Source: an uncultured bacterium (lineage in GTDB: Bacteria; Fidelibacterota; Marinisomatia; Marinisomatales; UBA1611). Taken from it: DNA of 50,218 nt. The position numbers were made by a program, and so were the translations under genes. Below, in pieces: positions 10,196 through 40,908 of the stretch (the stretch's first letter is position 1; every line of letters starts with the position of its first letter). The DNA lies in assembly GCA_964646455.1 (NCBI GenBank), contig CAZYDX010000004.1:1-50218 (forward strand), read 5' to 3'. The notes under the pieces are model-generated. The model made no database searches. It was not told the DNA's origin and saw only the letters and a program-made list of their open reading frames with translations.

Positions 10196-10221
10196 GTTCT
10201 CAGTACATGTTGGTTGTCTTT

Positions 10222-11685
10222 TCAATTAATTTTTGAACCATAATTAAGTTGGTCATCAGATGTAAGAATGGGAAATGAAGGCACAATGATTGGATATGCT
10301 AGGCCCCTTTGTGTGACAATCATATCGGTAGAGGTGAGTTCTGTTTTTTCAAAAATATCTGTGTTTATCTTTATTTTATTTGAATATTTATTTTGTAGAG
10401 AATCTATCAGATCATTATACAAAACATTTTCGCTATTATTAGAATCTTTATTGAAAATTGATATAAATCGTTTGCTTGCGTATGCATCATGCCACATGCT
10501 TACATTAGACTTTACTCTCCAATCTTTTTCCAATCCTTTTTTATAACACTCTTTATTTATTGATTGATCTCTCAATAAATCTGCCAAAGATAATTTTAGC
10601 TGATTACGAAACTGACTTTTACCTATTTCCCTTTTCCTAAAAACTAAGGGGTGTGACTGAATCAATTGATTGATGTCTTTTACTGTCCATTGTTTGTTAT
10701 CATATTTTAGAATTACATCATCTGGTAAAAGTTTGGTATTATTTTTTAGTGTAATTGTTTTCGGATTCTCTATTTCTTCCCATAATGCTTTATTTATAGC
10801 ACTCTTTTTAGAGTCTGTATCTTGAAGATAAACCTTAGATGCTTCATAAGCATATTGATTAAAAATTTTTGGATTAAAATCAATTTTTTTACCGGACATT
10901 ATTTTTTTTACATGCTTGAGATATTTTTTTTTAGCTGTTTTTTCTTTGATCATATCTTTTATATCATTCCATTGAATTTTCTGTTCATTCGCAGTAATAG
11001 AAACTTTATCTGTCCAACCTTCAATATTCATAACAAGATAACTTCCATCGTCATTAGTAAAAGGACCTATTAGTTGACCTTTTTTTATATTCTTACTAAA
11101 TAACTTCTCATGGATAAAATCAGGTTCTTTATCAAAAAAACCAATTATTCTTTTTGGTATTCCCCCTCCCCATACATTATTATATATATAAGATAAAGAA
11201 AAATTCTGTTTTAATAATTCCTGAATTTTGTTTAATGCCTCTTTATTTGGTAGGTTGATATAGTTCACCTCAATTGATCGCCCAGAGATATGTATTAAGT
11301 TTTCAATTGTACTATCGGGGACAACAGTTTTACTAAAAAAATCATCATTGTAAAAGACTTGCCGCATTGCCTGTTCTTTCCTACCCGTTAAATAATTGTT
11401 AAAATATTGGCTTTGTAGTAGGTCATCCTTTTTTTCTGACATTTCTATAGCTGTGAGTTTTTCAGCGATTAATGAGTTTAAAACAATTTTTTTATGAATA
11501 TAGTTTGACTGCCTACAATAGTCAGGTCTGATCGTATACTCCGATCTACGAATAAAATCTTGAACTGTAATGATTCTGTCCTCTACTATAGCAAGAACAT
11601 CGGTGCTTAATGGTAACTGGTTTTTGTCAGAACAGTCTAATGAAATGAAAAATATAAATATAGCACAAGGTAGAGACCTGGGCAT
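10222..11685 (-). CDS. SurA/PrsA-like periplasmic chaperone (degenerate PPIase), probable lipoprotein
   Basis: SLDC lipobox-like; VLAIVEDRIITVQDF, LNSLIAEKL, KKGQLIGPF…GSYLVM and LQNKYSNKIKIN resemble foldase frame elements; rotamase active site not recognisable. Confidence 0.55.
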   Translation of the reverse strand: MPRSLPCAIFIFFISLDCSDKNQLPLSTDVLAIVEDRIITVQDFIRRSEYTIRPDYCRQSNYIHKKIVLNSLIAEKLTAIEMSEKKDDLLQSQYFNNYLTGRKEQAMRQVFYNDDFFSKTVVPDSTIENLIHISGRSIEVNYINLPNKEALNKIQELLKQNFSLSYIYNNVWGGGIPKRIIGFFDKEPDFIHEKLFSKNIKKGQLIGPFTNDDGSYLVMNIEGWTDKVSITANEQKIQWNDIKDMIKEKTAKKKYLKHVKKIMSGKKIDFNPKIFNQYAYEASKVYLQDTDSKKSAINKALWEEIENPKTITLKNNTKLLPDDVILKYDNKQWTVKDINQLIQSHPLVFRKREIGKSQFRNQLKLSLADLLRDQSINKECYKKGLEKDWRVKSNVSMWHDAYASKRFISIFNKDSNNSENVLYNDLIDSLQNKYSNKIKINTDIFEKTELTSTDMIVTQRGLAYPIIVPSFPILTSDDQLNYGSKIN

Positions 11686-11691
11686 ATCAAA

Positions 11692-12747
11692 CTAAAATGA
11701 AAAACCAAGAGTGTAAACATGTACATTGCCCAGTATACCAACTGCTTTATAGGCATAGTCAATAGACACAAACTTGTTCCCTAAAACAAACAGCTTTATT
11801 CCTACACCTCCAGCATAACCATATTCTGGGCTGTCCATGAAAAGAGCTTTCATTCCACCCCGAAGGCTAAAGGTGCCAACGCCCGGAATTGTGTTGTCAA
11901 GCGCACACCCGATGTTAATGGATTCAGAATTGTTGTTTGGGTGAAGAGCATCCGCGGATATTGTAAGCTGAGAAATATTATTAACAATTGGCTTAAGAGC
12001 AACACCTATTCTAAATATTAAAGGAAGCTCCCACTCTGATGGTCTAAACTGACCTGGAACATCACCGTAGTTACCTTCTTCATATTCAGAAATATCAATA
12101 GGCTGATAAATATCTATGCCATCAAATCTCATTCTAGTTCCATAGTTGGAAATGCTCATTCCAATATTTAGCCCATCCTCATCTTTCCCGGTAAATGAAA
12201 AGAAATCAGTATTCACAAGAACACCAAGGTCAACGGCAACCGCACTAGCAGAGCTGTGCCATATATTAGAACGAACGTATTTTATTGTAGAGCCAAATGA
12301 AAACCAGGGAACTAGTTTTCTTGAAAAAGTAAGTGATGCAGCAATATCAGATGCTGTAAAATTTTCTCCTGTACCTTCTTGATATTCAAGCGTGGTCACT
12401 GCCATCTCTCCGTAATTCATTTGGGTTAGACCAAAACCAATATTTCCTATCCTGGGTATGATTAAAGCACCTGCTGTAAAAGACATGTTAATCCCGGCCA
12501 GCCAAGGTTGACTCATAAAAGAAAGTTTGGGCATATCCAAACTTGCAAGACCTGCTGGATTCCAATATATTGATGATATATCATCAGACACAGCAACAAA
12601 AGCATCTCCCATAGAGCTCCCCTCACTGTCAACTCCAATCTCAAGAAAATTTCCAGTTGTTGTACCATATCTGTGAATCATCTGAGCGTGGATGCTTGCA
12701 CAAAAGAATAGGCAGCTTATAATTATATATTTTCTAATACTTATCAT
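11692..12747 (-). CDS. PorV/PorQ-like (UPF0164, FadL-type) outer-membrane beta-barrel
   Basis: Signal peptide; FLEIGV…SMGDAFVAVSDDISSIYWNPAGL; LPLIFRIG; terminal aromatic YTLGFSF. Confidence 0.85.
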   Translation of the reverse strand: MISIRKYIIISCLFFCASIHAQMIHRYGTTTGNFLEIGVDSEGSSMGDAFVAVSDDISSIYWNPAGLASLDMPKLSFMSQPWLAGINMSFTAGALIIPRIGNIGFGLTQMNYGEMAVTTLEYQEGTGENFTASDIAASLTFSRKLVPWFSFGSTIKYVRSNIWHSSASAVAVDLGVLVNTDFFSFTGKDEDGLNIGMSISNYGTRMRFDGIDIYQPIDISEYEEGNYGDVPGQFRPSEWELPLIFRIGVALKPIVNNISQLTISADALHPNNNSESINIGCALDNTIPGVGTFSLRGGMKALFMDSPEYGYAGGVGIKLFVLGNKFVSIDYAYKAVGILGNVHVYTLGFSF

Positions 12748-15700
12748 TTAATTACTGCAAATTTTCCAATTTTCGTGTCGCCTGTGTTTGTAGACTCAAC
12801 ATGGTAAATATACATCCCAGCTGCTATTTCTAAACTTTCTCTTGTTAACATGTCCCAATGAACAAGCCCCTTTTCAGGGGGGTTTTGCACGATTATCTCA
12901 TCAACTAAAACACCACTGACCGTGAATATTTTAATCGTGCACTGTGCAGGTATATGAGTAAAAATAATTCTTCTTCTTTGGTTTAGATAAGGATTTGTTA
13001 CCGCCTCTTCCATCATGTTTGACATTACATAAGGATTCGGAACCACCATTATATTATCCATAGAGTTTGATAGTGCCTGTGTATCTAGGTTATCATCATA
13101 GTCAATTGAAAAGTGTATTGAGTCCGTTATATAAAAAGGTCTTTTCCAATCCACCTGATACACATCACCAGGGTTTGGCATCGTTATTTCTGTAGATAGT
13201 TGAAAGTCTAAAATGAATGCCGTAGCTCTCCACCTACTTCCAACAGTTGCTCCAACAAAAATACGGTCTTCATAAATATCAAAAACATTATTATTATTAA
13301 CATCGTGGATGACCACATCCATTAAATCATAGCCACCAGCCTCATTTATGAAGGATGTATTCTGTACATAAAAATTAACGGCGGGGTTTGTTATTTTAGC
13401 TGAACCAATTGAGACTCCATTTTCATCGCGAACTGTGCCAGAAGAGGCAATCCCAACATAGGTTGAATCATTGTCCATAAAAACAATTTTATATGTCCAT
13501 GGTATTTTAATACCCTCTGATAAAGAAGGCGTTACCCTCATAATACCACTGCCATTGATCCATTCTGAATTTTCATAGCTATATTCAGGTATTTCAACAT
13601 AGTCATCTACCTCTACCTGGAGACCATCAAAAATATCAGATGAGATTGAGGTGTTTGGATTAAGCGTCCAATAGTCCACAGTGTCTCTATAGATTAGATT
13701 GTTGCCAATATATTTTGTTGGGGTCTCACTATACGCTAGTAAACTATCTGTTAAGTCATAGATCTTTATCTCATTAGTGGTGTACTGGATTCCTCTTTCA
13801 TAACCACTTACCGTTGCAACTGTATCAATACCAAAAGTTATTGCATAATTATGCCCTTTTTTCAAACTCCCCTGTGCTCTGATTATTGGAGAAACAGTGC
13901 CTGAACCAACAATATTATTTTCAGCTATATCAACCTCTGGGGGTATGTATCCTGCGGCCCTTTGATGGGGCGTCACAATCGCTATATTTTTCCCAATTGA
14001 TCTAATGTTCTCATACTCATCTAGTTCAATAACTGTGTTGTTTTCTGATGGTGAAATACCAGGCCCAATATCAGGGGCGCCAAAGTCATATGCTACAACA
14101 GCATAGTAATATGTCCTACCATTTTGAACTGTATTATCTACAAAAATATGGGTGATCCCCGAATTATTTCCCAGGTTATATCCAGAGCCATTAATTAAAC
14201 CAAAATCTGTAAAACCACTACACTGGTGAATCATACCGGTTTTAGGATTTGGATTGTGACCGACATCGTCCACCATATCACACTGGTATATTGGTTTTTT
14301 AAAAGTTGGTGTGCCATAGCCATCTGTAATTATCTCAGGGTCTGCCATATACTTATCTGTTGACCGGTACACCTTATAACCTTCAAAATCATTAATATTT
14401 CCTACAAATGGGTCTCTGGTTTTTGTGTCGGCGGCATCATCCCAGGTAAGAATAACCTCACCATCAGCAGCAGTTGCAGAAATAGTTGGCATTCTAGGCG
14501 GCTGCGCAAAACGGTAATCTTTTTCATAAATAACCTGAACAATTCTTTTTAATTCATACAAGGCTGGTGCTCCATGCTCAGGACTATTTAATCCTGCCAG
14601 TGGGTCATAAGAATGAAGTTCGGACATTGATATCCTCTCGACCCTACCTTGATATAGTGGAAATGATCCAGAGGCAAACACCTCTACAAGGTTGGAAATA
14701 TTGCCCTCGAACTCTTCAAGTGTATCCCCACCTACTAAATCCCACATAACCTGATCATTCTTAAACCACTGTGTTTCATTTGACGCTGAGTGGCTTGGGA
14801 TTGGAAACATCCGGAAAGATGTTAGCCCAACCATATCCGACTCTGATACATCTGTTGTATTAAAATTAGGCTCACAGCCAACACCCTCAACAAAATCAGG
14901 CCTATGATTGCACTCTGATCCATCATCATCAGGACCATTATAGTTTATTTCTCCTGGTCCGACACCATCAATTCCTATATCATCACCATAAAAGTATGCC
15001 ACTTCTAAATCATCCAAATTTTCTCCGTTACAAGCACCTTCGTCTGAATCTTGCCAGTCTTGGTCCTCATCAGCATCCCAATGCGGCTTTAAATCTTCTG
15101 CATCGAGCTTGTAGTATTCTAAAAATGCGCTTAGATCATTGATTCCTTCTGTAGCACCAACTATAGCTGTTGGTTCATTATCTCTTTTTTCATCAATTAG
15201 GCCATCAAAGTCATTATCTATATTGTCATAGGCTAGCCCAGGACTCTCAAGATATGCAAAACCCATTACCCCTGTAGGAAGACCACCAGAACCAACTCCA
15301 TTTATATCCCATGAGTATGACATATCGATATCTATATCAAAAAAACCAATGTCATCTGAAGCATCATTACCGATACCATTATCAACCCAATATCCAAAGG
15401 CAACATCCCTTATATCATAGTCAGATACATTGGCTATAGAATACTCCCAAAAAATAGCATCTCTAGCTTGAGGGTTGTTCCACTGAAAACCACGAACTTC
15501 TACTCGAAGACCAAGTCCACCCCACGATTCACCGCGTTGTTTTGTAACATCTGGCTTTATATCACCAATTTTCATTCCAGGCCTTGGATAATATTTAACA
15601 AAGTCTTCAGGGCCAATATATTCTAGGTCCTGGGCATCATTAACAACGTAATAACTTTCTTGATCAGCATATTTAACACCACGCCCAAATCTACCGTTCC

Positions 15701-16244
15701 ACTCTCCTGGCCACTTTTTCTCAAACCCAGTAGATGGCCACCCGCCAATTGGCCATGAATTTTCTATATTAGAAACAGAAGGATACTCATTGGACTCATT
15801 AAAATAGCCAAACACAGGATAGAACCCCCACTCTACCGTGCCTGTTGGGTCTCTGTCCATTTCTTCTCTGTAGCTTGTTTGTAAATAATGAAGCGTGTGT
15901 TTTGTTTGACTATAAATATCTATCGGGTTGGTGAGCGGTATAGTATCAACTGTAGAGGCATCTCCATCATCTTTGATATAAACCTTTGCCCCCACTAAAA
16001 GACCAATGCCGTCAACCATTTTTACCCCGTCATTATTGTTTGGCCACCTGGAAGCATTGGTCGCAGGCCAATCAGATAGTTCAGTAGTATTTTTAAAATA
16101 TAATAAAACGCGATTCCCCGTCATGTATCCTTCTCTCTCTGCAGCAGGGTCACCAGCAGGATCCTCAGGGCCCGCATAGGGCTTACCCTGAGATAAAACA
16201 AAAGAGCACAGAACAGATAGTACTATAATAAAACCTTTAATCAT
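12744..16244 (-). CDS. Large secreted protein of unknown function with Asp-rich Ca-binding loops, FN3-like domain and variant C-terminal sorting domain
   Basis: Signal peptide; DNIDNDFDGLIDE and DDIGIDGVGP…GPDDDG; VILTWDD…FEGYKVYRS…NGRTYYYAVVAYD; VVPNPY…TIKIFTVSG…WDM…AAGMYIY…KFAVIK. Confidence 0.7.
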   Translation of the reverse strand: MIKGFIIVLSVLCSFVLSQGKPYAGPEDPAGDPAAEREGYMTGNRVLLYFKNTTELSDWPATNASRWPNNNDGVKMVDGIGLLVGAKVYIKDDGDASTVDTIPLTNPIDIYSQTKHTLHYLQTSYREEMDRDPTGTVEWGFYPVFGYFNESNEYPSVSNIENSWPIGGWPSTGFEKKWPGEWNGRFGRGVKYADQESYYVVNDAQDLEYIGPEDFVKYYPRPGMKIGDIKPDVTKQRGESWGGLGLRVEVRGFQWNNPQARDAIFWEYSIANVSDYDIRDVAFGYWVDNGIGNDASDDIGFFDIDIDMSYSWDINGVGSGGLPTGVMGFAYLESPGLAYDNIDNDFDGLIDEKRDNEPTAIVGATEGINDLSAFLEYYKLDAEDLKPHWDADEDQDWQDSDEGACNGENLDDLEVAYFYGDDIGIDGVGPGEINYNGPDDDGSECNHRPDFVEGVGCEPNFNTTDVSESDMVGLTSFRMFPIPSHSASNETQWFKNDQVMWDLVGGDTLEEFEGNISNLVEVFASGSFPLYQGRVERISMSELHSYDPLAGLNSPEHGAPALYELKRIVQVIYEKDYRFAQPPRMPTISATAADGEVILTWDDAADTKTRDPFVGNINDFEGYKVYRSTDKYMADPEIITDGYGTPTFKKPIYQCDMVDDVGHNPNPKTGMIHQCSGFTDFGLINGSGYNLGNNSGITHIFVDNTVQNGRTYYYAVVAYDFGAPDIGPGISPSENNTVIELDEYENIRSIGKNIAIVTPHQRAAGYIPPEVDIAENNIVGSGTVSPIIRAQGSLKKGHNYAITFGIDTVATVSGYERGIQYTTNEIKIYDLTDSLLAYSETPTKYIGNNLIYRDTVDYWTLNPNTSISSDIFDGLQVEVDDYVEIPEYSYENSEWINGSGIMRVTPSLSEGIKIPWTYKIVFMDNDSTYVGIASSGTVRDENGVSIGSAKITNPAVNFYVQNTSFINEAGGYDLMDVVIHDVNNNNVFDIYEDRIFVGATVGSRWRATAFILDFQLSTEITMPNPGDVYQVDWKRPFYITDSIHFSIDYDDNLDTQALSNSMDNIMVVPNPYVMSNMMEEAVTNPYLNQRRRIIFTHIPAQCTIKIFTVSGVLVDEIIVQNPPEKGLVHWDMLTRESLEIAAGMYIYHVESTNTGDTKIGKFAVIK

Positions 16245-18898
16245 TAGAAATAGATCCCGATACCTATCTTAACCATCCTGGGAGAAGAAAACATTGAGGG
16301 GTTTTTTATACGATCTTCGTAATCATTAAAGTCACTACGGTGACCTGCGATATCTGTCTCTTTGATGATGGCGGTATATGCTCGTCCTGTCTGATCGTTT
16401 ACCCACTCTTCATTGAGCCTGTCAAATAAATTATATATGCTCACATCTAAATTAGCATTGTACCCACCAGGAAGCTTAAATCGATAATAAAACGAGCAAT
16501 CAACTGAATATTTCTCAGGCCTGTAATCATTATTTGGATAGAGGTTGATTCTAGATAATATACTCTCACTCTGCGGAGAAAATGTATAGGGAGATCCAGA
16601 GTTATAGTACGCTGTCATAGAACCACCAAATTTTTCAGAGCCATATATAAGTGACCCGTTAAGAGTATGGCGCTGGTCCCAACTCATTGGAATAAATCTA
16701 TTCACCGGGTCTTGATTATTACCAGCCCTGTCAAACGTTTGTCCGGGAGAATCTGCATTACCCCTAGTGTATTGAAGTGTATAGTTAACCATTCCCTTTA
16801 TTTGACCCAGAGCAAGATCTAGCTTTAGCTCCAACCCTCGAACATTTCCGTAGTCTTTATTGGAGTATAATCCATATTTGACTTGGTTATAGGTTGAAAT
16901 TGTTTTAGTCGTTAACAAATTATATATATCTCTATAAAACAGTGCTACATCCAGTGCCATCATTTGATTTAATTCCTGCCAAAGACCTATCTCATAAGTA
17001 ATGGTTTTTTCTGGCTCCAATAATGTATTACCCATTCTAGTAACAAAATTATTTGGATCAACTAAAAAGCTGTTGTTCTGGTACATCGCATACATAGGAG
17101 GCATCTGGAAAAAATGCCCATAACTAAAATGTAAAACTGCCTGGTTCCCAAGCTGATAGGCAAATCCAACTCTAGGGCTCATTTGCGAAATAACCGGCGC
17201 CTGTGGGTAATCACTCATCATTGAATCTGGAAGAATAAGCTGGTTGGCTGGATTTCTTCTGTCTGACGGGTAGACACTCTCTGGATCAAATTGGTCGTAA
17301 CGAAGGCCAATATTGATAACCATGTCATCAAACTCCATTTTATCTTGTATGTAAAAAGCCACCTCTTTAGGTGAAACCTTGTACACGTCAGCATAGGCTG
17401 AAGAATCACCAAATATCTCTGGGACATAGACTGAATCACTCGCGGTGTTGTGAAATTTGTTTCTAATTTGATGCCACCTGTTATCTAGCTCATGGCTGAA
17501 ATAATGGAGGCCTGTTTTTATGCTGTGGGTGTGATTCGCCTGCCAGGTTACATCCAATTTATAGGTTTGATCAACCATCCAGCGATCTAAATGATCCTTT
17601 GATTGACCGCCCGTTAAAAACCCCGGACCATAACTATCAAAGTATCGATCATGAACATACCTACTATCAAGTGGATCCTCATAGACATAAGTTCCAAAGT
17701 CATTATCAACAATAGAATATTTAAACTCATAAAATAATTTCTGAGAAAACATTTGGTTTAATTGGAAAGCAAAATAAGTGGTAGCTTTCCTCGATATTGA
17801 TCTCCCCTCTGGATTGTATTTGAAGGAATGATCATAACCCATCCAGCTATCATCACTGTGTGATAAAAGTGTAGAAAAACGTACTCCATTAAAAAGATTA
17901 AAACTAAGCTTGATAAGAGCTGAAAAATTATTGCTCGTATTCATTGGAACATATGAACTATCACCAGTTTTTTCTGAAACCCAAAGCGTTGAATCATCGT
18001 AATAAAAATTGGAAAAATTATCTACCTCGAAAAGTCTTAATCCATTCAGATGTCCGTTGTTTTCTTGAACTCTAACGTTTGTGAAAAAAGTGACCTTATT
18101 ACCAATAACAGGACCACCAAGACTAAATTTAATATCTTGGCTCTTATTTAAACTGGGATCCAAACCTATAAAAATATCTGTGTTATCTGTATAGTATGAT
18201 GAACCGCCATAAGATACAGACCCTTCATATTTTGGTCCACCATCTCTGGTTACCACATTTACAACGCCGCTCATTGCTCTACCATATTCAGCATTAAATG
18301 TCCCTGTGACAACCTCAAGATCTTGTACTGCCTCCGGCTGTATATCAACCGTGGCGCTCGACCCACCAAATGTTTCATCCACCTGAATGCCATCTACCAT
18401 GTAAGTCACTTCCGTACTTCTCCCCCCCCTAAAGTGCCCATTGACCACCCCAGCCTGCATATTTACGACGGCGCCAACATTTTCAACAGGAAGAGCATTA
18501 ATCTCGTCGCCAGAAATATTCTTTATTGTTCCCGTTTGGTCTTTTTTCTGAGCAAATCTAGCTACCTCAACAGTGACAACTTCTCCCTCTATTACAGTCT
18601 GTTCTAGCTCTGCCTCAAGAAAGAATGTTCTGTTTATCGATACAGTAATATTTTCCATTTTGATGGACCTATAACCAATCATATCAATTTTTAGATTATA
18701 TTTACCAGGTGGAATATTTATCAAAGTAAACCTACCCTGATTATCTGACGCAGACCCAAATGAAGTGTTTTCTAGGTAAACATTTGCGCCAGGTAAAGGT
18801 GATGAAGCTGATTTATCTTTTACTACACCAGATATTTTCCCTGTCGTCTGCGCAAAAATATTACAAGTAAGTAAAAAGCATACTATATATCTATACAT
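16244..18898 (-). CDS. TonB-dependent receptor with N-terminal carboxypeptidase-regulatory-like domain
   Basis: Start refined to MYRYIVCF at 18898; QTTGKISGVV…LPGANV…IPPGKY; plug HFRGGR…TGTFNAEYG.AMSGVVN; GLRYD, LEPEKT..YEIG, NLFD, terminal Phe. Confidence 0.9.
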   Translation of the reverse strand: MYRYIVCFLLTCNIFAQTTGKISGVVKDKSASSPLPGANVYLENTSFGSASDNQGRFTLINIPPGKYNLKIDMIGYRSIKMENITVSINRTFFLEAELEQTVIEGEVVTVEVARFAQKKDQTGTIKNISGDEINALPVENVGAVVNMQAGVVNGHFRGGRSTEVTYMVDGIQVDETFGGSSATVDIQPEAVQDLEVVTGTFNAEYGRAMSGVVNVVTRDGGPKYEGSVSYGGSSYYTDNTDIFIGLDPSLNKSQDIKFSLGGPVIGNKVTFFTNVRVQENNGHLNGLRLFEVDNFSNFYYDDSTLWVSEKTGDSSYVPMNTSNNFSALIKLSFNLFNGVRFSTLLSHSDDSWMGYDHSFKYNPEGRSISRKATTYFAFQLNQMFSQKLFYEFKYSIVDNDFGTYVYEDPLDSRYVHDRYFDSYGPGFLTGGQSKDHLDRWMVDQTYKLDVTWQANHTHSIKTGLHYFSHELDNRWHQIRNKFHNTASDSVYVPEIFGDSSAYADVYKVSPKEVAFYIQDKMEFDDMVINIGLRYDQFDPESVYPSDRRNPANQLILPDSMMSDYPQAPVISQMSPRVGFAYQLGNQAVLHFSYGHFFQMPPMYAMYQNNSFLVDPNNFVTRMGNTLLEPEKTITYEIGLWQELNQMMALDVALFYRDIYNLLTTKTISTYNQVKYGLYSNKDYGNVRGLELKLDLALGQIKGMVNYTLQYTRGNADSPGQTFDRAGNNQDPVNRFIPMSWDQRHTLNGSLIYGSEKFGGSMTAYYNSGSPYTFSPQSESILSRINLYPNNDYRPEKYSVDCSFYYRFKLPGGYNANLDVSIYNLFDRLNEEWVNDQTGRAYTAIIKETDIAGHRSDFNDYEDRIKNPSMFSSPRMVKIGIGIYF

Positions 18899-18952
18899 GA
18901 ATTTATTTAGAAGTAAGTATATATAATTTAGTGATAGTTCCACATTCTGAAA

Positions 18953-18986
18953 AAAAGAAAGGCAGGAATAAACCCGCCTTTCTTTT
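18953..18986 (-). terminator. Intrinsic terminator between the glycan-binding protein gene and the TBDR gene
   Basis: Minus strand reads GAAAGGCGGG-TTTATT-CCTGCCTTTC followed by a T run, starting about 16 nt after the stop at 19003. Confidence 0.8.
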
Positions 18987-19002
18987 CAAATGTTAAATGA
19001 TG

Positions 19003-22000
19003 TTATTTTAATAATATCATTTTTTGCGTCATGGACTTCGTTCCTGAATCTAATCGGTAGAAGTACACCCCTGACGCGTATCTGCCGGCGTTCCACTGTA
19101 CCATGTGAAAGCCAGCAGCTCTGTTCTCATTGACCAGTGTTTCTACAAGTCGCCCTGTAACACTATATATACCAAGGTATACTTTTTGATTCTCTGGTAG
19201 TGAGAACTTGATGTTTGTTACTGGATTAAACGGGTTCGGGTAGTTTGGAAACAAAGCAAAAACCTCAGGAGTAACCGGGGTTTCATTATCATTGCCTAGT
19301 ATTGTTGCCTGATCTCCGATCCAGGTAAAAGACCACTCTCCAGGGTTGTTCCACTGCTGATCAGTTGCAATGGTTGAGTAACCCACATTCCCCTCCCAGG
19401 TTCCATTATCATTATCATGAAAATAAATATCTAGTGGAATTCTCATTCCATTCACAGGATGAAACCTTTGGTCTCCTCCTAACGCTGAAAGAGTATCCAA
19501 AGATATTTTTCCTTCAACGACATAGTCAGGGTCAAACATCTCAAAATGATAATGATCCTGATCAGAGTTTCCGATACTTGAATTGGTTGGATTATCTAAC
19601 TGAAGGGTGTTTTCGTTCGCATAAACAATATAGTCCGGCTCATCGCCACGCTTGATTGAAGTATGCTTTGGGCCTCTCCAGTCGTACAGACCAAAGAATA
19701 TCTGTAACGCATCCTGATCCCACCAGTTACCTTCTCCAAAATGATAGTCATCATCAATAACATCTGCAGCAAAATATAGATAGTCATCATCGATTGCGAG
19801 ATACACTGTTCCGCTTAAATCCTGATCATCATCAACATTAGACCAGACACCCCCAGTAGTAGGATTAATAACAAATGGCATAATACCACTATCTGACCAC
19901 TCAGATATGTTTCCATCTGCGGCAAAGTTTGAAGGGACGTTAAGTGAGATTGTTGGTATACCTTTTGCCTCGTTTGTAATAGGTGCATCTGTTGCCCCTG
20001 GAGCACCAATGTTGCCAGCAGCATCAACACAAACAACAGCATAGTAGTAGCTCACGTTTATATTTTGAAGTGGAGCATATAGATAATGGGTGGCTGTCTG
20101 TGCGCCTTCAATCACATTTGACGCAATAAGCTCAACCCCATCAGCTCCAACATCGGTGATTGCACTTGTGCTAGCATACGCATGATAAAGCTCACCCTCT
20201 TCCCCATCAATATCTGTCCAGGTAACCAAGTTAAAATTGGCCCCAGGAATTGCTCCAACATTTCCAGGTGCAACCGGAGCTACAACATCTATGTCTGGAT
20301 TTCCTGTCCAAAAATTGTCAAAGTGGAATATTCTTTCAGGCACACCATTGCCCTCAGCAAGTACCTGAAAAACAGTAACCGCACTTGTGTCAAAGTTTGT
20401 GGTGTTATCCATTTCTGTAAAGTCTTTTAGAGCAAACATATAATGATTCCACCCACCAGCTGCCACAGGAGTAAATGTTTCCCCGACCTTACCATCATCA
20501 CCAGATTCCAACTGCAAACGAATCGCAGGCGCATCTGCCTCTGAGTGCATCCAGAAAGAGATTGAATCACTTAGCCATTCACCACCACTCGCTAGATCAA
20601 CAGCAGGAGCAATATTAAAACCAGCCCCTGACCATGCGTCTTGCTGAATAAAAGTAAGAGCGTTTGTCCCAGCTATATATCCACCACCATCAGTGACAAA
20701 CATCTGAGCGCCACCCCATTGAAATGGATTTCCCCATCCAGGTGGTGTACCCATACCATTAAATATAACTAGATCGACACCTTTGTATCCGGTCAGAGTA
20801 AAATTATCTAAGACAACGGTTCCACCAACTGCATCACCTTCACCGCCGCCACCTATAGAAAACTCCAGGTGGAAACCTCCAATAGCATAGGTGTCTAGCT
20901 CACCATTATCAGTATCTCCTGCCCAACCTGTAAGATTAAAACCTGCACCATCCCATGAATCATTTCTGACCAATGGTAGCGTAACAGTATTCCAGCCCGC
21001 TTCAGCATCTAAAATATAATGAAAAGAATAATAATACTCTCCTAAACCAGCATAGTCATCAGATACCCCAGCATAATCACTGAGATTTAGTCTGAGGTGT
21101 ATCCTATTTGCCTCAGAAGCGGCAATGGAGTTATAGTATGAAAATGATATACTATCATATGCAGACCAATCCCAAACTTCACCATGTTCACGTTGCATAG
21201 AAAAGATCGCTGTTCCGTTCTTATTAAATGTTGACGCCCTCCCTTCTTGAATTGAAAAATCCAAATTCTGATGAACCTGTACTAGCGATGCTGCAGGGCT
21301 AACATGAACGTTAACGCTTGTAAGCGTAACTGGAGCATCTAGCGTGGACACATATAAAAGAAAAGAACTAAAAGTATTTTCTCCCTGTGCTGGAATATCC
21401 ACACTGTATTGTGTTGGATCTGTTCCAGAGACTGTCACAGCAGCTGTGTTGTAGCTAGGATCAACATCTGGGTATGGATTGTATTCAAAACGAAAATAAA
21501 CTTCGGCATCTGTTCCGGCTGTCGAACCCATAAAAGAAATCGATCCCCCATTTGGAAAAGAGAATGGATACACAGACACATCCTCATTGGCAAATCCTGC
21601 CCAACCTTCAGCTCCAGTTGGGTTAGTATAGGTCATTGTTGTCGTATCAACTACAGCACCGCCAAATGGACCAGAAAAAACGATATCTGGCATTGGTGGA
21701 ACATTTTTATGAACATGGACATGTGTCAATGTAACTGGAGCATCTAGCGTGGACACATATAAAAGAAAAGAACTAAAAGTATTTTCTCCCTGTGCTGGAA
21801 TATCCACACTGTATTGTGTTGGATCTGTTCCAGAGACTGTCACAGCAGCTGTGTTGTAGCTAGGATCAACATCTGGGTATGGATTGTATTCAAAACGAAA
21901 ATAAACTTCGGCATCTGTTCCGGCTGTCGAACCCATAAAAGAAATCGATCCCCCATTTGGAAAAGAGAATGGATACACAGACACATCCTCATTGGCAAAT

Positions 22001-22809
22001 CCTGCCCAACCTTCAGCTCCAGTTGGGTTAGTATAGGTCATTGTTGTCGTATCAACTACAGCGCCACCAAACTCACCAGAAAAAACTACTCCTTCATGAA
22101 CCATTACATTTTTAAGCGTAACAGGGGCATCCAGTGTATTTACATACAACAAGAATGAACTAAAAGTATTTTCTCCCTGTGCTGGAATATCCACACTGTA
22201 TTGTGTTGGATCTGTTCCAGAGACTGTCACAGCAGCTGTGTTGTAGCTAGGATCAACATCTGGGTATGGATTGTATTCAAAACGAAAGTGAATATTTACA
22301 TCCGCTCCAGCTGTTGAACCAGTGAAAGAGATTGTTCCTCCACCAGGAAAACTAAATGGATACAATGTAGTATCCTCATTAGCGAAACCAGCCCAACTTT
22401 CAGAACCTGTAGGATTAGTATAGGTCATTGTTGCGGTATCAACTTCAGCGCCACCAAATGGACCAGAAAAAACAATAGAAGATCCTTCCATAACGCCTGG
22501 ACCATCAGGTCCACCTCCAGTCGTATCGGGAGGAAGAGGAGCACGAGAATAATGGTAAATTTTTGCATAACCTCCCCAAGACTCAATATTGTGACCACTA
22601 TATTCAAGCTTCATCGCGCCTGCCCCCTCAGAAATAGGATCTGTCACATAGCTAACATTCACAAAGCTTAGTGTGCTATCAGCGTTTTCAGAAATTTCAT
22701 GACCCCAGTATGTGGAATCAGTTGGTTCAGAATCGTAATTATTTATCATCTGAGCAGATGATATTATTGGTATAAAAAATAAAGTGAAAATGGTTAACAT
22801 TTTTTTCAT
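19003..22809 (-). CDS. Secreted multimodular non-catalytic glycan-binding protein (split CBM11-like, 3 tandem repeats, further CBM-like and CBM9/DOMON-like domains, sorting domain)
   Basis: AGGAG RBS; signal peptide; DWSAYDSISF…GWNTVTLPL…LDNF; DGNISEW…DDDYLYFAADVIDD…WDQDALQIF CBM9-like; NYPNPFNP…KMILLK; no GH catalytic motif recognised. Confidence 0.7.
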   Translation of the reverse strand: MKKMLTIFTLFFIPIISSAQMINNYDSEPTDSTYWGHEISENADSTLSFVNVSYVTDPISEGAGAMKLEYSGHNIESWGGYAKIYHYSRAPLPPDTTGGGPDGPGVMEGSSIVFSGPFGGAEVDTATMTYTNPTGSESWAGFANEDTTLYPFSFPGGGTISFTGSTAGADVNIHFRFEYNPYPDVDPSYNTAAVTVSGTDPTQYSVDIPAQGENTFSSFLLYVNTLDAPVTLKNVMVHEGVVFSGEFGGAVVDTTTMTYTNPTGAEGWAGFANEDVSVYPFSFPNGGSISFMGSTAGTDAEVYFRFEYNPYPDVDPSYNTAAVTVSGTDPTQYSVDIPAQGENTFSSFLLYVSTLDAPVTLTHVHVHKNVPPMPDIVFSGPFGGAVVDTTTMTYTNPTGAEGWAGFANEDVSVYPFSFPNGGSISFMGSTAGTDAEVYFRFEYNPYPDVDPSYNTAAVTVSGTDPTQYSVDIPAQGENTFSSFLLYVSTLDAPVTLTSVNVHVSPAASLVQVHQNLDFSIQEGRASTFNKNGTAIFSMQREHGEVWDWSAYDSISFSYYNSIAASEANRIHLRLNLSDYAGVSDDYAGLGEYYYSFHYILDAEAGWNTVTLPLVRNDSWDGAGFNLTGWAGDTDNGELDTYAIGGFHLEFSIGGGGEGDAVGGTVVLDNFTLTGYKGVDLVIFNGMGTPPGWGNPFQWGGAQMFVTDGGGYIAGTNALTFIQQDAWSGAGFNIAPAVDLASGGEWLSDSISFWMHSEADAPAIRLQLESGDDGKVGETFTPVAAGGWNHYMFALKDFTEMDNTTNFDTSAVTVFQVLAEGNGVPERIFHFDNFWTGNPDIDVVAPVAPGNVGAIPGANFNLVTWTDIDGEEGELYHAYASTSAITDVGADGVELIASNVIEGAQTATHYLYAPLQNINVSYYYAVVCVDAAGNIGAPGATDAPITNEAKGIPTISLNVPSNFAADGNISEWSDSGIMPFVINPTTGGVWSNVDDDQDLSGTVYLAIDDDYLYFAADVIDDDYHFGEGNWWDQDALQIFFGLYDWRGPKHTSIKRGDEPDYIVYANENTLQLDNPTNSSIGNSDQDHYHFEMFDPDYVVEGKISLDTLSALGGDQRFHPVNGMRIPLDIYFHDNDNGTWEGNVGYSTIATDQQWNNPGEWSFTWIGDQATILGNDNETPVTPEVFALFPNYPNPFNPVTNIKFSLPENQKVYLGIYSVTGRLVETLVNENRAAGFHMVQWNAGRYASGVYFYRLDSGTKSMTQKMILLK
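21326..22470. repeat. Three in-frame tandem repeats (periods 405 and 387 bp) inside the 1268-aa gene
   Basis: 21326-21657 reads identical to 21731-22062 (332 bp); a 131-bp core is also identical at 22157-22287; protein unit VFSG.FGGA…W AGFANED…FRFEYNPYPDVDP…FSSFLLYV. Confidence 0.95.
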
Positions 22810-23010: not shown

Positions 23011-24000
23011 ATGAGAGCAACACTAAAACAGGTTGCAGAAGAAACAGGCCTATCTATTGCAACTGTTTCGAGGGCACTGCGAAGAAAAAAAAGAAATTAT
23101 TCTCTAAATGAAGAAAAAATATATGCCTCAGCTAGGAAGCTGGGATATCCTTTTATTGGAGACCTGACAAAACCAGAGACACCTTCCATTGCTCTTTTGA
23201 CTGAAGTCCGAGAGGGCGAATTTTACTCTTCTTTGTTCTATGGATTCTATGAGGCAAGTAGAAAAGCAAACTCCGATATCGTCTTTGAAAACCTTGGTAA
23301 TCATATGGATGACCCGGTCAGCCATATAATAAATTTGAGTAAAAAATATAGTGGGATATGCCTCTTCCTACCCAGTTTAGATAAAATCAATTACCAAAAA
23401 ATAAAAGAGGCTGTCGGGAAATATCCAATAGTTTCTCTTATTCCAGAAAAAAACATTAAAATTGATACAGTGTCTTTTGACTCATACAGCGGTGGCTATA
23501 TGGTAGCAAAACACTTTCAGGAACAGGGGTATACTGACTTTGGTATTATTACTGGACCCAGGAAGGTTATGGATGCTTCCTTTAGAAAAAATGGGTTTAT
23601 AGACCACATAAATGAAACTGCTGGGCTAAGGCTTTTTTGGGCTTTTGAAGGAGATTTTTCCAGCCACTCTGGAAACCTTGCCTTTCAAGACTTTAAGGAT
23701 AAAGGCTTAAAAAATATTGCTATATTTGGTTGTAATGATCACAGTTGTATTGGTTTTATAAAAGCCGCTTCAGAAAACAATTTTAAAATAAAAACAGATT
23801 TTATAATTGCCGGATTTGACAACCTGTCTTTTTGCGAGCTAATGACCCCAGAGCTCACATCTGTTTCAACAGACTTTGGAGCATTAGGAGAGCGAGCAAT
23901 TCGCACTATTGAAAACATGATAAATGACGACAGTAATATTGTTGGACAGTTTACGATGATCCCCGTAAAAATAATAATTAGACAAAGCACTCAAGTCTAA
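23011..24000 (+). CDS. LacI/GalR family transcriptional regulator
   Basis: TLKQVAEETGLSIATVSRAL HTH; AIFGCND, IAGFDN, PELTSV, IIRQST sugar-binding domain motifs. Confidence 0.93.
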   Translation: MRATLKQVAEETGLSIATVSRALRRKKRNYSLNEEKIYASARKLGYPFIGDLTKPETPSIALLTEVREGEFYSSLFYGFYEASRKANSDIVFENLGNHMDDPVSHIINLSKKYSGICLFLPSLDKINYQKIKEAVGKYPIVSLIPEKNIKIDTVSFDSYSGGYMVAKHFQEQGYTDFGIITGPRKVMDASFRKNGFIDHINETAGLRLFWAFEGDFSSHSGNLAFQDFKDKGLKNIAIFGCNDHSCIGFIKAASENNFKIKTDFIIAGFDNLSFCELMTPELTSVSTDFGALGERAIRTIENMINDDSNIVGQFTMIPVKIIIRQSTQV

Positions 24001-24019
24001 GTCACAAATAAACACGAAA

Positions 24020-27920: not shown

Positions 27921-27921
27921 A

Positions 27922-31862: not shown

Positions 31863-31876
31863 AAAACCAGTTTATT

Positions 31877-33223: not shown

Positions 33224-33247
33224 TAAAAATATGCATTGCTCTAAATA

Positions 33248-36634: not shown

Positions 36635-36653
36635 GGGGAGCAGAAAAATAACC

Positions 36654-40902: not shown

Positions 40903-40908
40903 ATTGCA

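What the first reader, a model, noticed from the sequence alone, without database searches (positions are those of the whole stretch)
10222..22809. SusD-independent outer-membrane glycan capture cassette: binding protein, TBDR, unknown CTD protein, PorV-like barrel, chaperone
Seen: five co-oriented genes; the TBDR stop overlaps the next start (TAATG at 16244), that gene overlaps the PorV-like gene (ATGA at 12744-12747), and the chaperone follows 6 nt later. There is no SusD-like lipoprotein. Known: Bacteroidota PULs pair SusC with SusD, and PorV binds T9SS C-terminal domains. Inference: the 1166-aa protein sits in the SusD position and may be held at the surface by its own PorV paralog as a lid or receptor for the TBDR, with a dedicated foldase. 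This would be a different uptake machine from SusCD, and I know of no functional description of it.
Basis: partly seen in the sequence, partly recalled or inferred. Interest (0 to 1): 0.85.

Follow-up and report, generated by a model that had tools for sequence, protein, structure and literature searches.

The report
TonB receptor with PorV-anchored surface partner
A marine SAR406-type bacterium, and many bacteria from related phyla, pair their outer-membrane sugar importers with a large undescribed surface protein and its own small anchoring barrel instead of the SusD lid known from Bacteroides, which looks like a second, overlooked way to build a nutrient-capture machine.

Summary
Five co-oriented minus-strand genes with the stated overlaps sit in a ~40-kb beta-glucan (laminarin-type) locus of a Marinimicrobia/SAR406 MAG.

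The core is a three-gene module: TonB-dependent receptor (TBDR), a 1166-aa protein with no family match ("BIG"), and a PorV/PorQ-family barrel.
- The module recurs at least 5 times in this genome.
- BIG is found in 148 of 151 sampled genomes of the phylum.
- TBDR and barrel genes flank BIG in 60 of 60 testable loci from Marinimicrobia, Calditrichia, KSB1, Ignavibacteria and Rhodothermales.

BIG is not SusD-like. AlphaFold shows an N-terminal galactose-mutarotase-like supersandwich (Z 18-20 to N-domains of GH94/GH15 enzymes), beta domains, and a C-terminal domain like the uncleaved CTD of PorZ (Z 12.1). A complex model places this CTD on the adjacent barrel (ipSAE 0.90, best control 0.16). The "chaperone" is a SurA/PrsA-fold lipoprotein.

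Best reading: a T9SS-delivered co-receptor, tethered by a cognate PorV-family barrel, serves the TBDR. Anchoring is modelled. Contact with the TBDR rests on synteny alone.

My literature searches found no description of it. I rate it a new variant of known kinds (bipartite TBDR; cognate PorV-like barrel).

The parts
19003..22809 (-). 1268-aa secreted protein: three 135-aa tandem repeats, beta domains, a CBM9-like module (residues 992-1159) and an ordinary T9SS type-A CTD (1190-1265). Candidate surface glycan-binding protein.
   Evidence: Pfam CBM9_1 8.8e-12 and Por_Secre_tail 1.8e-10. TIGR04183 1e-10. A 405-nt tandem repeat x2.9 at 21319-22474. Homologues lie directly upstream of the TBDR in 26 of 80 related loci.
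16244..18943 (-). TonB-dependent receptor: CarboxypepD_reg-like N-domain, Plug and a 22-strand-type barrel. Probable true start is the ATG at 18898.
   Evidence: Pfam TonB_dep_Rec_b-barrel 9.3e-31, CarbopepD_reg_2 5.6e-18, Plug 3.7e-09. It is not in the SusC/RagA family: TIGR04056 matches only model positions 2-225 at 56.4 bits against a cut-off of 368. Its stop overlaps the next start, TAATG.
12744..16244 (-). BIG: 1166-aa protein of an unnamed family. Signal peptide; N-terminal galactose-mutarotase-like supersandwich (~30-580) with a long Asp-rich loop insert (~335-475); Fn3-like domain (~585-740); further beta domains (~745-1050); helix 1055-1064; PorZ-like CTD (~1066-1166).
   Evidence: No Pfam hit even at E<=10. 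TIGR04183 only 16.5 bits, E 0.0062. AF2 pLDDT 86.4, pTM 0.76. VIA-align Z 18-20 to N-domains of GH94/GH15/GH116-type enzymes, and Z 12.1 to the PorZ CTD. Family size: 3197 representative clusters at E<=1e-3.
11692..12747 (-). 351-aa PorV/PorQ-family outer-membrane barrel, the cognate partner predicted to bind the BIG CTD.
   Evidence: NF033709 194.1 bits (cut-off 90). It is below the PorV (87.7 of 250) and PorQ (92.7 of 220) equivalog cut-offs. The profile hits F. johnsoniae PorV 6h3i_F at 1.4e-25. ATGA overlap with BIG. Complex model ipSAE 0.90 against best control 0.16.
10222..11685 (-). 487-aa lipoprotein with SurA/PrsA/PpiD-like architecture: a helical chaperone scaffold plus a parvulin domain at ~123-246.
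   Evidence: No Pfam or NCBIfam hit. Cys18 is invariant in 26 homologues. AF2 pLDDT 76.6. Foldseek finds SurA, PrsA and PEB4 at probability 1.00, E 1.4e-4 and higher. VIA Z 9-10.5 for the parvulin domain. Present downstream of the triad in 20 of 63 loci with room.
8405..10225 (-). GH16 + malectin domain + T9SS CTD; secreted endo-beta-glucanase candidate.
   Evidence: Pfam Glyco_hydro_16 9.1e-27, Malectin 3.5e-13, Por_Secre_tail 8e-07. Homologues in 24 of 80 related loci.
6595..8430 (-). GH3 beta-glucosidase-type enzyme.
   Evidence: Pfam Glyco_hydro_3 3.3e-75 and Glyco_hydro_3_C 1.2e-46. Homologues in 15 of 80 related loci.
3066..6602 (-). 1178-aa CotH + lamin-tail domains + T9SS CTD protein; last co-oriented gene of the operon.
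   Evidence: Pfam CotH 1.1e-52, LTD 1.1e-31, Por_Secre_tail 5.5e-08. A homologue follows GH3 in locus L069.
23011..42309 (+). Divergent companion operon: LacI-type regulator, GH16+PA14, SBP5/Opp-type ABC importer (binding protein, two permeases, fused ATPase), GH1, GH30, a 1128-aa unknown, GH16+CTD, GH16, GH5+CBM35+CTD and an M20 peptidase.
   Evidence: Pfam scans.

Best explanation
The region is the outer-membrane half of a beta-1,3-glucan (laminarin-type) utilisation locus in a Marinimicrobia/SAR406 bacterium. Its core is a conserved three-gene module: TBDR, BIG and a PorV/PorQ-family barrel.

Proposed mechanism:
1. BIG crosses the inner membrane by Sec and the outer membrane by the type IX secretion system. 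The genome encodes the SprA translocon.
2. BIG's PorZ-like C-terminal domain is not removed. It stays bound to the dedicated PorV-family barrel encoded next to it, and this tethers BIG to the cell surface. This mirrors PorZ on PorQ, PorU on PorV, and SprB with SprF.
3. The tethered BIG works with the neighbouring TBDR as its surface co-receptor or cap, the role SusD plays for SusC. Its galactose-mutarotase-like supersandwich is the likely ligand-handling domain.
4. The CBM9/CTD protein and the GH16/CTD enzymes capture and cut the glucan at the surface. After TonB-powered import, GH3 and the other enzymes, the ABC importer and GH1 finish the job.
5. The SurA/PrsA-like lipoprotein assists folding or assembly of one of the large components in this subfamily of loci.

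What is shown: gene content, the overlaps, conservation of the triad, the folds, and a distinct CTD subclass.
What is modelled: CTD-barrel binding.
What is inferred only: retention of the CTD, contact between BIG and the TBDR, and ligand binding.

My odds: beta-glucan locus 0.85; triad is one functional module 0.9; BIG anchored by its barrel 0.7; BIG physically serves the TBDR 0.45.
For: Locus content: five GH16 genes, GH3, GH1, GH30, GH5, a CBM9 protein, LacI and an ABC importer.

Triad repeats in G000. Complete copies lie on C4, C9 and C31. Contig-cut copies lie on C24, C11 and C181. Genes abut or overlap.

Across 80 loci from genome contigs (record titles: Neomarinimicrobiota, Calditrichia, KSB1, Ignavibacteria, Rhodothermales, Stahlbacteria and others):
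- 60 of 60 with room on both sides have the TBDR and the barrel on the BIG strand.
- 53 of 60 are in strict TBDR-BIG-barrel order, within +/-300 nt of one another.
- The median intergenic gaps are a few tens of nt or less.

Five-genome census, my collation of coordinates, covering 19 BIG-family genes:
- 16 have a PorV-family match directly downstream, 1 has it directly upstream, 1 has it within 8 kb, and 1 has none.
- 18 of 19 have a TBDR in the cluster.

BIG is found in 41 of 41 relatives and in 148 of 151 genomes sampled across the phylum. SusD is found in 0 matches in G000 and in 13 of 41 relatives.

BIG fold: supersandwich with Z 18-20, about 255 residues aligned, rmsd 3.0-3.7. CTD against the PorZ CTD: Z 12.1, rmsd 2.3, 90 aligned, 23% identity. 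Foldseek's top hits are PorZ and PorU. The profile's best PDB sequence hits are the PorU and PorZ C-termini (E 0.009 and 0.011).

The BIG-type CTD is a separate subclass: 8 strong phmmer hits, all BIG-family ORFs, plus 3 weak cross-hits to ordinary-CTD ORFs (11 in all), against 66 hits for an ordinary CTD.

Barrels next to BIG genes score 340-525 bits against the triad-barrel profile. The best PorV candidate (C28) and the barrel near sprA score 105 and 76 (NCBIfam typing). SprA is present.

Complex model: ipSAE 0.90, 0.90 and 0.91 against a best control of 0.16. The runs share at least 80% of their contacts. Partner pLDDT is at least 73. The tool's mark was reached by 58 of 80 solved complexes and 2 of 110 mismatched pairs.

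Published concept: cognate PorV-like barrels may protect CTDs from cleavage, as for PorZ/PorQ and type B substrates with SprF-like proteins (PMC10202324, passages read). A FadL-like 14-strand barrel, BamG, binds a surface protein beside BamA (PMC12578637, passage read).
Against: No result here shows contact between BIG and the TBDR. The pair was too large for the complex tool, so this step rests on synteny.

PorV-CTD complexes have been solved. The profile hit lists 6h3i and the 8gl* entries as PorV-containing; that these include cargo CTD bound to PorV is my recollection. The complex pass may therefore reflect likeness to known structures, not specificity of this pair. No control with an ordinary CTD was possible.

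Conserved residues are only mildly enriched at the modelled interface, by my hand count: 11 of 22 conserved CTD positions against about 6.6 expected, and 11 of 48 barrel positions against about 7.1 expected.

Two of the 8 BIG-type-CTD genes in G000 (C193, C209) are followed by other genes, not by a barrel. One of 19 in the census is an orphan.

The supersandwich fold also occurs in true enzymes (aldose epimerases, some lyases and hydrolases), so BIG could be catalytic.

Other triads of G000 sit near non-CAZyme genes such as a sigma factor, an M1 peptidase and a Na/Pi transporter, so ligand class is not fixed by the module.

Whether the CTD is retained cannot be told from sequence.
Confidence: 0.5

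Rival explanations
1. BIG is a T9SS-displayed surface glycan-binding protein or enzyme, tethered by its barrel. It acts upstream of the TBDR without forming a complex with it (SGBP-like, not SusD-like). Co-transcription only ensures co-expression.
For: The anchoring evidence is the same as for the best explanation. The supersandwich fold is shared with carbohydrate-active enzymes and epimerases. No TBDR interface was tested.
Against: Accessory binding proteins are usually variable between loci. BIG keeps the immediate post-TBDR position in 53 of 60 loci across phyla and in paralogous triads with about 30% identity. That is the pattern of obligate partners such as SusC/SusD. The locus already has a separate CBM9 binding protein.
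Confidence: 0.25
2. The PorV-family barrel is only a dedicated secretion shuttle, like SprF for SprB. After export the CTD is cleaved, and BIG is released or linked to LPS like ordinary type-A cargo.
For: The barrel belongs to the PorV/PorQ family. PorV is described as a shuttle, and PorP/SprF-like barrels as substrate-specific (PMC10202324, passages read).
Against: The genome already has a better PorV candidate and 66 ordinary CTD hits served without private barrels. BIG's CTD resembles most closely those of PorZ and PorU, the two CTDs reported as not processed. CTD residues are among the most conserved of the whole family.
Confidence: 0.15
3. The TBDR-like barrel is not an importer. It belongs to an export or biogenesis device for BIG (an Oar-type role), or the small barrel is a FadL-type channel for hydrophobic compounds unrelated to BIG.
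For: The TBDR also matches PF25183 OMP_b-brl_4 (1.1e-10). That Oar-like receptors with the same N-domain carry this model, and that Oar is needed for protein export in Myxococcus, are my recollection and were not checked here. PorV is a FadL homologue (PMC12578637).
Against: The T9SS translocon SprA is present and BIG has a T9SS-type CTD. The locus is otherwise a textbook import-and-degradation locus with glycosidases, an ABC importer and a regulator. The complex model places the CTD on the barrel.
Confidence: 0.05

Closest known systems
SusC/SusD (RagA/RagB) pairs of Bacteroidota polysaccharide utilisation loci
   Same: A TBDR with a CarboxypepD_reg-like N-domain is followed immediately by a gene for a surface-exposed partner. 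The pair is embedded among glycosidases, binding proteins and a regulator. There are multiple paralogous copies per genome.
   Different: The partner is not SusD. It has no PF07980 or PF14322 match, it is an almost all-beta 1166-aa protein rather than a helical TPR-like lipoprotein, and it has a Sec signal with a T9SS CTD rather than a lipobox. A third obligatory gene, the PorV-family barrel, is present. The TBDR is outside the TIGR04056 family.
PorZ-PorQ and PorU-PorV pairs of the T9SS attachment complex
   Same: A T9SS cargo whose type-A-like CTD is kept and bound by a PorV/PorQ-family barrel. BIG's CTD is closest to those of PorZ and PorU. Some longer BIG-family members carry PorZ-like propeller segments.
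   Different: The pair occurs in many copies per genome, each next to a TBDR, not once per cell as part of the secretion machinery. BIG itself does not match the PorZ model at E<=0.01. Its N-terminal supersandwich has no counterpart in PorZ as described in the PDB title and hits.
SprB-SprF (type-B CTD cargo with a cognate PorP/SprF barrel encoded downstream)
   Same: The gene for a large surface protein is followed by the gene for its own PorV-like barrel (concept from PMC10202324).
   Different: The CTD class differs (type-A-like, not type B). The barrel family is PorV/PorQ NF033709. There is no motility context, and the pair is always coupled to a TBDR.
Bipartite TonB receptors with a surface co-receptor (TbpA/TbpB, HpuA/HpuB); recalled, not examined here
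   Same: A TBDR plus a surface-tethered ligand-capturing partner encoded in the same operon.
   Different: Those partners are lipoproteins anchored by lipid, not proteins anchored through a barrel. The ligands and phyla are unrelated.
BamG-BamH of the Bacteroidota BAM complex
   Same: A 14-strand FadL/PorV-like barrel packs against a larger barrel and holds an extracellular protein over it (PMC12578637, passage read). This is a structural precedent for the proposed TBDR-barrel-BIG arrangement.
   Different: The machine and function are different, and homology was not tested here.

Membership tests
SusD/RagB | Match to PF07980 or PF14322 (SusD-like) | tested here: not met
   No Pfam hit for the 1166-aa protein even at E<=10. 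PF07980 and PF14322 find nothing in the whole genome, while the B. thetaiotaomicron control rings.
SusD/RagB | Helical TPR-like fold and a lipoprotein signal | tested here: not met
   The AF2 model (pLDDT 86.4) is almost entirely beta strands. The N-terminus looks to me like a signal-peptidase-I type signal; the only Cys in it sits in no canonical lipobox (my reading; no predictor was run).
SusC/RagA TBDR (TIGR04056) | Full-length match above the curated cut-off | tested here: not met
   Only model positions 2-225 match, at 56.4 bits against a cut-off of 368.25.
TonB-dependent receptor | Plug domain plus TonB-dependent beta-barrel | tested here: met
   PF07715 3.7e-09 and PF00593 9.3e-31, both above their cut-offs.
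PorV/PorQ family (NF033709) | Full-length match above the cut-off | tested here: met
   194.1 bits against a cut-off of 90, model positions 1-326. The profile hits solved PorV 6h3i_F at 1.4e-25.
PorV proper (NF033710) or PorQ proper (NF033711) | Equivalog cut-off reached | tested here: not met
   87.7 of 250 for PorV and 92.7 of 220 for PorQ. The genome's best PorV candidate is a different gene, G000:C28, at 186.8 bits.
T9SS type-A CTD (TIGR04183 / PF18962) | Sequence match above the cut-off | tested here: not met
   TIGR04183 16.5 bits, E 0.0062, cut-off 23. No PF18962 hit.
T9SS type-A CTD (TIGR04183 / PF18962) | Ig-like beta-sandwich CTD fold at the extreme C-terminus | tested here: met
   Model residues 1054-1166 align to the PorZ CTD (5m11_A 683-776) with Z 12.1, rmsd 2.3, 90 residues, 23% identity.
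T9SS type-A CTD (TIGR04183 / PF18962) | Secretion depends on the T9SS; fate of the CTD (cleaved or kept) | not testable with these tools
   Only the presence of SprA in the genome could be shown.
PorZ (NF052228) | Match to the PorZ model, including its propellers | tested here: not met
   No hit for the 1166-aa protein at E<=0.01. Five of six longer family members examined match PorZ positions ~346-672 at 28-65 bits, far below the cut-off of 260.
SurA/PrsA/PpiD parvulin chaperones | Sequence match to rotamase or SurA_N families | tested here: not met
   No Pfam hit at E<=10. No NCBIfam hit. No PDB sequence hit with the profile at E<=1.
SurA/PrsA/PpiD parvulin chaperones | Helical chaperone scaffold with an inserted parvulin fold | tested here: met
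   Foldseek finds SurA, PrsA and PEB4 at probability 1.00. VIA Z 9-10.5 over residues ~123-246 to parvulin domains, with longer alignments to SurA and PpiD over residues 27-446.
GH94/GH15/GH65-type glycoside phosphorylases and hydrolases | Catalytic (alpha/alpha)6 barrel following the N-terminal supersandwich | tested here: not met
   Only the N-domain aligns, about 230-270 residues. In the DSSP string of the model the only helices of 10 or more residues are the signal peptide (2-17), 560-574 and 1055-1064.

The most novel reading that the evidence does not exclude
FCB-group phyla outside the classical Bacteroidia (Marinimicrobia/SAR406, Calditrichia, KSB1, Ignavibacteria, Rhodothermales) use a three-component outer-membrane uptake machine as their main TonB-dependent capture device. 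It consists of a TBDR, a T9SS-delivered cap or co-receptor of a previously unnamed family of about 1100 aa, and a dedicated PorV-family barrel. The barrel holds the cap by its uncleaved CTD beside the transporter. This would be an independent solution to the problem that SusD lipoproteins solve, and a second job for the PorV fold: permanent anchor of a transporter subunit.
Probability: 0.4. Interest if true: 0.85.

Novelty: new variant of a known kind. Interest (0 to 1): 0.72.

Why it matters
SAR406/Marinimicrobia are among the most abundant bacteria of the dark ocean (general knowledge, not checked here). How they take up polymers is poorly understood.

Tools and studies that look for polysaccharide utilisation loci key on the SusC/SusD pair. 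This genome has no SusD, only 13 of 41 relatives have any, and 148 of 151 sampled genomes of the phylum carry the BIG family, usually in several copies.

If the triad is a transporter unit, three things follow:
- It gives a simple genomic marker for nutrient-uptake loci in at least five lineages.
- It gives a large, unnamed protein family (3197 representative clusters at E<=1e-3) a role.
- It extends the "cognate PorV-like barrel" idea from secretion and motility to transport.

It also makes concrete experiments possible: laminarin uptake, retention of the CTD, and composition of the complex.

Tried and rejected

Expression. The look-up of sequencing runs listed no RNA holder. Read laying was therefore not used, and nothing can be said about expression.

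Fusions. I looked for BIG-barrel fusions among six unusually long family members (1476-1592 aa). None carries a PorV-family domain. Five carry weak PorZ-like propeller segments and one a glycosylhydrolase-like N-extension. I did not search with 'longer' or 'shorter' lengths, so split or fused forms outside 0.55-1.75x of the query length are untested.

Sequence-level family searches gave nothing for BIG or the 487-aa protein: Pfam at E<=10, NCBIfam at E<=0.01, and a PDB profile search for A2. The ESM Atlas gave only unnamed look-alike clusters for BIG.

BIG residues ~745-1050 were barely tested by the fold searches, because the N-domain filled the lists. I make no claim about their fold beyond 'beta-rich'.

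Score correlation. Bit scores of TBDR, BIG and barrel to the window's proteins correlate across 62 loci (Spearman 0.84-0.86; 0.33-0.87 within the two subgroups). I do not count this as evidence of co-evolution, because genes of one locus share their phylogeny.

Interface conservation. Enrichment is modest (hand count, see the Against line) and is not used as support.

A TBDR-BIG complex model was not attempted. The pair (899 + 1166 residues) exceeds the tool's 1000-residue limit, and I had no basis for choosing a sub-domain.

Literature. Eight keyword searches found no paper describing a TBDR/PorV-like/large-CTD-protein module. These are word searches of an open-access library. Subscription papers and different wording would be missed, and supplements were closed. 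What I saw of the papers:
- PMC10202324, PMC12578637, PMC5317091, PMC12296878: passages only, through 'find'.
- PMC12296878 characterises a GH16 laminarinase attributed to this phylum but does not mention TonB, an operon or a gene cluster (0 occurrences of each).
- PMC5317091 mentions TBDRs only for B12 and thiamine.
- All other papers: search listings only.

A last homology search with a Rhodothermales family member returned only 'hypothetical protein' names from MAGs or unnamed records. No cultivated carrier was identified.

Full report
WHAT IS THERE. The window is contig C4 of a 2.46-Mb, 87%-complete MAG. Its proteins are closest to records labelled Candidatus Marinimicrobia or Neomarinimicrobiota (SAR406).

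On the minus strand, ORF listing gives five co-oriented genes at exactly the reported coordinates. The sequence shows three junctions:
- TAATG joins the TBDR and the 1166-aa gene.
- ATGA joins the 1166-aa gene and the PorV-like gene.
- A 6-nt spacer precedes the 487-aa gene.

Three more genes follow on the same strand with overlapping longest-ORF coordinates: GH16+malectin+CTD, GH3, and CotH+LTD+CTD. A divergent operon encodes a LacI regulator, GH16+PA14, an Opp-type ABC importer, GH1, GH30, two more GH16 genes and GH5+CBM35. The setting is therefore a beta-glucan, most likely laminarin-type, utilisation locus of about 40 kb. No ORF of the window matches a SusD family, and neither does anything else in the genome.

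THE FIVE GENES.
1. The 1268-aa protein has a CBM9-like module, an ordinary type-A T9SS CTD and a 405-nt tandem repeat x2.9.
2. The TBDR has CarboxypepD_reg, Plug and barrel domains. It lies outside the SusC/RagA family: 56 bits over the first 225 model positions, against a cut-off of 368.
3. The 1166-aa protein ("BIG") matches no Pfam model even at E<=10. It matches the CTD model TIGR04183 only weakly (16.5 bits).
4. The 351-aa protein is a full-length member of the PorV/PorQ family NF033709 (194 bits). It is well below the PorV and PorQ equivalog cut-offs.
5. The 487-aa protein has no sequence family. Its Cys18 is invariant among 26 homologues, so it is probably a lipoprotein.

FOLDS. An AlphaFold2 model of BIG from a 44-sequence alignment is confident (pLDDT 86.4, pTM 0.76).
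- A full-library structural alignment finds that residues ~30-580(-740) form a galactose-mutarotase-like supersandwich. This fold is used as the N-terminal, non-catalytic domain of cellobiose and laminaribiose phosphorylases, glucoamylase, GH116 and related enzymes (Z 18-20, about 255 aligned residues, rmsd 3.0-3.7).
- In the DSSP string the only helices of 10 or more residues are the signal peptide, 560-574 and 1055-1064. The catalytic (alpha/alpha)6 barrel of those enzymes is therefore absent.
- Residues 1054-1166 superpose on the CTD of PorZ (Z 12.1, rmsd 2.3, 23% identity).
- PorZ and PorU are also Foldseek's top hits and the profile's best PDB sequence hits (E 0.011 and 0.009).
- BIG is therefore not SusD-like.
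- Residues ~745-1050 were barely tested.
- The 487-aa protein models (pLDDT 76.6) as a helical scaffold with an inserted parvulin domain. Foldseek gives SurA, PrsA and PEB4 at probability 1.00, and VIA gives Z 9-10.5 for the parvulin domain.

THE TRIAD IS A CONSERVED MODULE. Within this genome, BLAST and HMM searches of six-frame ORFs find the order TBDR-BIG-barrel four to six times:
- complete on C4, C9 and C31;
- cut by contig ends on C24, C11 and C181; the start of a PorV-family gene is visible at C11:14-148.

Scanning one genome per species with BIG motifs returned 80 loci. Their record titles name Neomarinimicrobiota, KSB1, Calditrichia, Ignavibacteria, Rhodothermales, Stahlbacteria and others.
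- Of the 60 loci with room on both sides, all 60 carry a TBDR and a PorV-family gene on the BIG strand.
- 53 of 60 are in strict order, within +/-300 nt of one another.
- The exceptions are rearrangements (TBDR-barrel-BIG), tandem BIG copies or an inserted gene.

In five further genomes of the phylum I collated all matches, covering 19 BIG-family genes.
- 16 have a PorV-family match directly downstream, one has it directly upstream, one within 8 kb, and one has none.
- 18 of 19 sit with a TBDR.
- Four of the five genomes also have one separate ~450-480-aa PorV-family open frame away from any BIG gene. It resembles G000:C28, the best PorV candidate.

BIG occurs in 41 of 41 relatives and in 148 of 151 genomes sampled across the phylum. 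The three misses lie in one genus with genomes of about 1 Mb. SusD occurs in 13 of 41 relatives. The family is large: 3197 representative clusters at E<=1e-3 and 380 at E<=1e-30.

IS BIG HELD BY ITS OWN BARREL?
- The genome has the SprA translocon. A phmmer search with an ordinary CTD finds 66 ORFs.
- The BIG CTD finds 8 strong hits, all BIG-family ORFs, plus 3 weak cross-hits to ordinary-CTD ORFs (11 in all). BIG CTDs are thus a class of their own.
- The four barrels next to BIG genes on C4, C9, C24 and C31 score 340-525 bits against a profile of triad barrels. A contig-cut barrel on C29 scores 125. The best PorV candidate (C28) scores 105, and the barrels on C39 (near sprA), C48 and C161 score 35-76.
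- A complex model of the barrel with BIG residues 1040-1166 scored ipSAE 0.90 in three runs, against 0.16 for the best of three controls. The runs share at least 80% of their contacts, and partner pLDDT is at least 73. The tool's mark was reached by 58 of 80 solved complexes and 2 of 110 mismatched pairs.
- The tool warns that likeness to solved complexes can produce such a pass. PorV-containing complexes are in the PDB. This result shows that the pair looks like a PorV-CTD pair, not that it is specific.
- The review PMC10202324 (passages) states that the PorU and PorZ CTDs are not processed and remain bound to PorV and PorQ. It proposes that cognate PorV-like barrels protect CTDs from cleavage. 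The BIG-barrel pair fits that idea closely.

DOES BIG SERVE THE TBDR? This is inference. The arguments are:
- the invariant position directly behind the TBDR;
- the overlapping stop and start codons;
- conservation of the arrangement in paralogous modules only about 30% identical and across phyla;
- a carbohydrate-enzyme-type N-domain;
- the absence of SusD.

The BAM structure paper offers a structural precedent: a FadL-like 14-strand barrel packed against a larger barrel while holding a surface protein (PMC12578637, passage). No interface was modelled, because the pair exceeds the tool's size limit.

LIMITS AND COUNTER-EVIDENCE.
- The module is not tied to glycans. GH16 or GH3 homologues lie in the fetched flanks of 29 of 80 loci, or 34 of 80 counting the CBM9-type protein.
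- The other triads of this genome have mixed neighbours: a starch-binding-module CTD protein (C24), other CTD proteins, a sigma factor and an M1 peptidase (C9), and a Na/Pi transporter (C31).
- The SurA-like gene accompanies the triad in 20 of 63 loci with room and has no paralog in this genome. It is an accessory of one subfamily.
- Two BIG-type-CTD genes on short contigs (C193, C209) are followed by other genes.
- The genome has one SusC-family TBDR at a contig end (C195), so a SusCD pair cannot be fully excluded.
- The supersandwich fold also occurs in real enzymes.

COMPARISON AND NOVELTY. The system works like a bipartite TonB receptor (SusCD; TbpAB, by recollection). It anchors its partner the way the T9SS anchors PorZ and PorU. 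It is a member of neither system. The SusD and SusC family tests fail, and so do the PorV and PorQ equivalog tests and the PorZ model. The PorV/PorQ family test, the TBDR test and the CTD fold test are met.

Eight keyword searches of the open-access library found no description of the module. Every source name seen for the family was 'hypothetical protein', apart from one automatic Atlas label, 'Lipoprotein, putative family protein'. I rate it a new variant of known kinds with an undescribed protein family at its centre. The surprising part is the combination and its breadth.

VERDICT. Conservation and anchoring are supported. The lid or co-receptor role is plausible but untested. Interest 0.72.

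Noticed in passing
window 21319-22474 (-), inside the CBM9/CTD gene: A 405-nt tandem repeat x2.9 (87% matches) encodes three ~135-aa modules of unknown family. The second and third are nearly identical at the protein level. These may be repeated glycan-binding modules.
   Followed up: partly
window 3066-6602 (-): A 1178-aa CotH kinase-like + lamin-tail-domain + T9SS CTD protein ends the glucan operon. A homologue follows GH3 in an Ignavibacteriaceae locus (L069:11748-14299). A secreted CotH-type protein in a glycan locus is unexplained.
   Followed up: partly
window 33248-36634 (+): A 1128-aa ORF with no Pfam hit at E<=1e-4 sits between GH30 and GH16 genes of the divergent operon.
   Followed up: no
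window 43778-50218 (-), continuing to G000:C4:52501: A giant ORF (2907 aa in the genome contig) with a FlgD_ig/Por_Secre_tail CTD and no other Pfam domain in the 2138 aa scanned. It runs off the window.
   Followed up: no
proteins P0187, P0202, P0208, P0212, P0235 (BIG-family members of 1476-1592 aa): Longer family members carry a segment that weakly matches the propeller region of PorZ (NF052228 positions ~346-672, 28-65 bits). This hints at shared ancestry between the BIG family and PorZ beyond the CTD.
   Followed up: partly
L024:282-12263; L088:4720-13653; L072:622-10250: Some loci have two or three tandem BIG genes but a single PorV-family gene. One barrel may serve several BIG paralogs, or they may alternate.
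   Followed up: no
G000:C195:445-2808 and relatives: One TBDR of this genome does reach the SusC/RagA cut-off (454 bits) but runs into a contig end. SusD-family matches occur in 13 of 41 related genomes, so SusCD and the triad coexist in parts of the phylum.
   Followed up: partly
G035:C4:120971-128176 and genus g26: Streamlined genomes of about 1 Mb in this order keep a single TBDR-BIG-barrel triad (6 of 9 sampled) or none (3 of 9). This suggests it is among the last uptake systems retained.
   Followed up: no
G000:C24:18387-21707 (L012:5388-8708, -) and G000:C193:1-2332: CTD proteins next to BIG genes combine a Planctomycete-type cytochrome c domain (PSCyt1) with starch-binding modules (CBM20/53-like) or a lamin-tail domain. 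This is an odd domain pairing.
   Followed up: no
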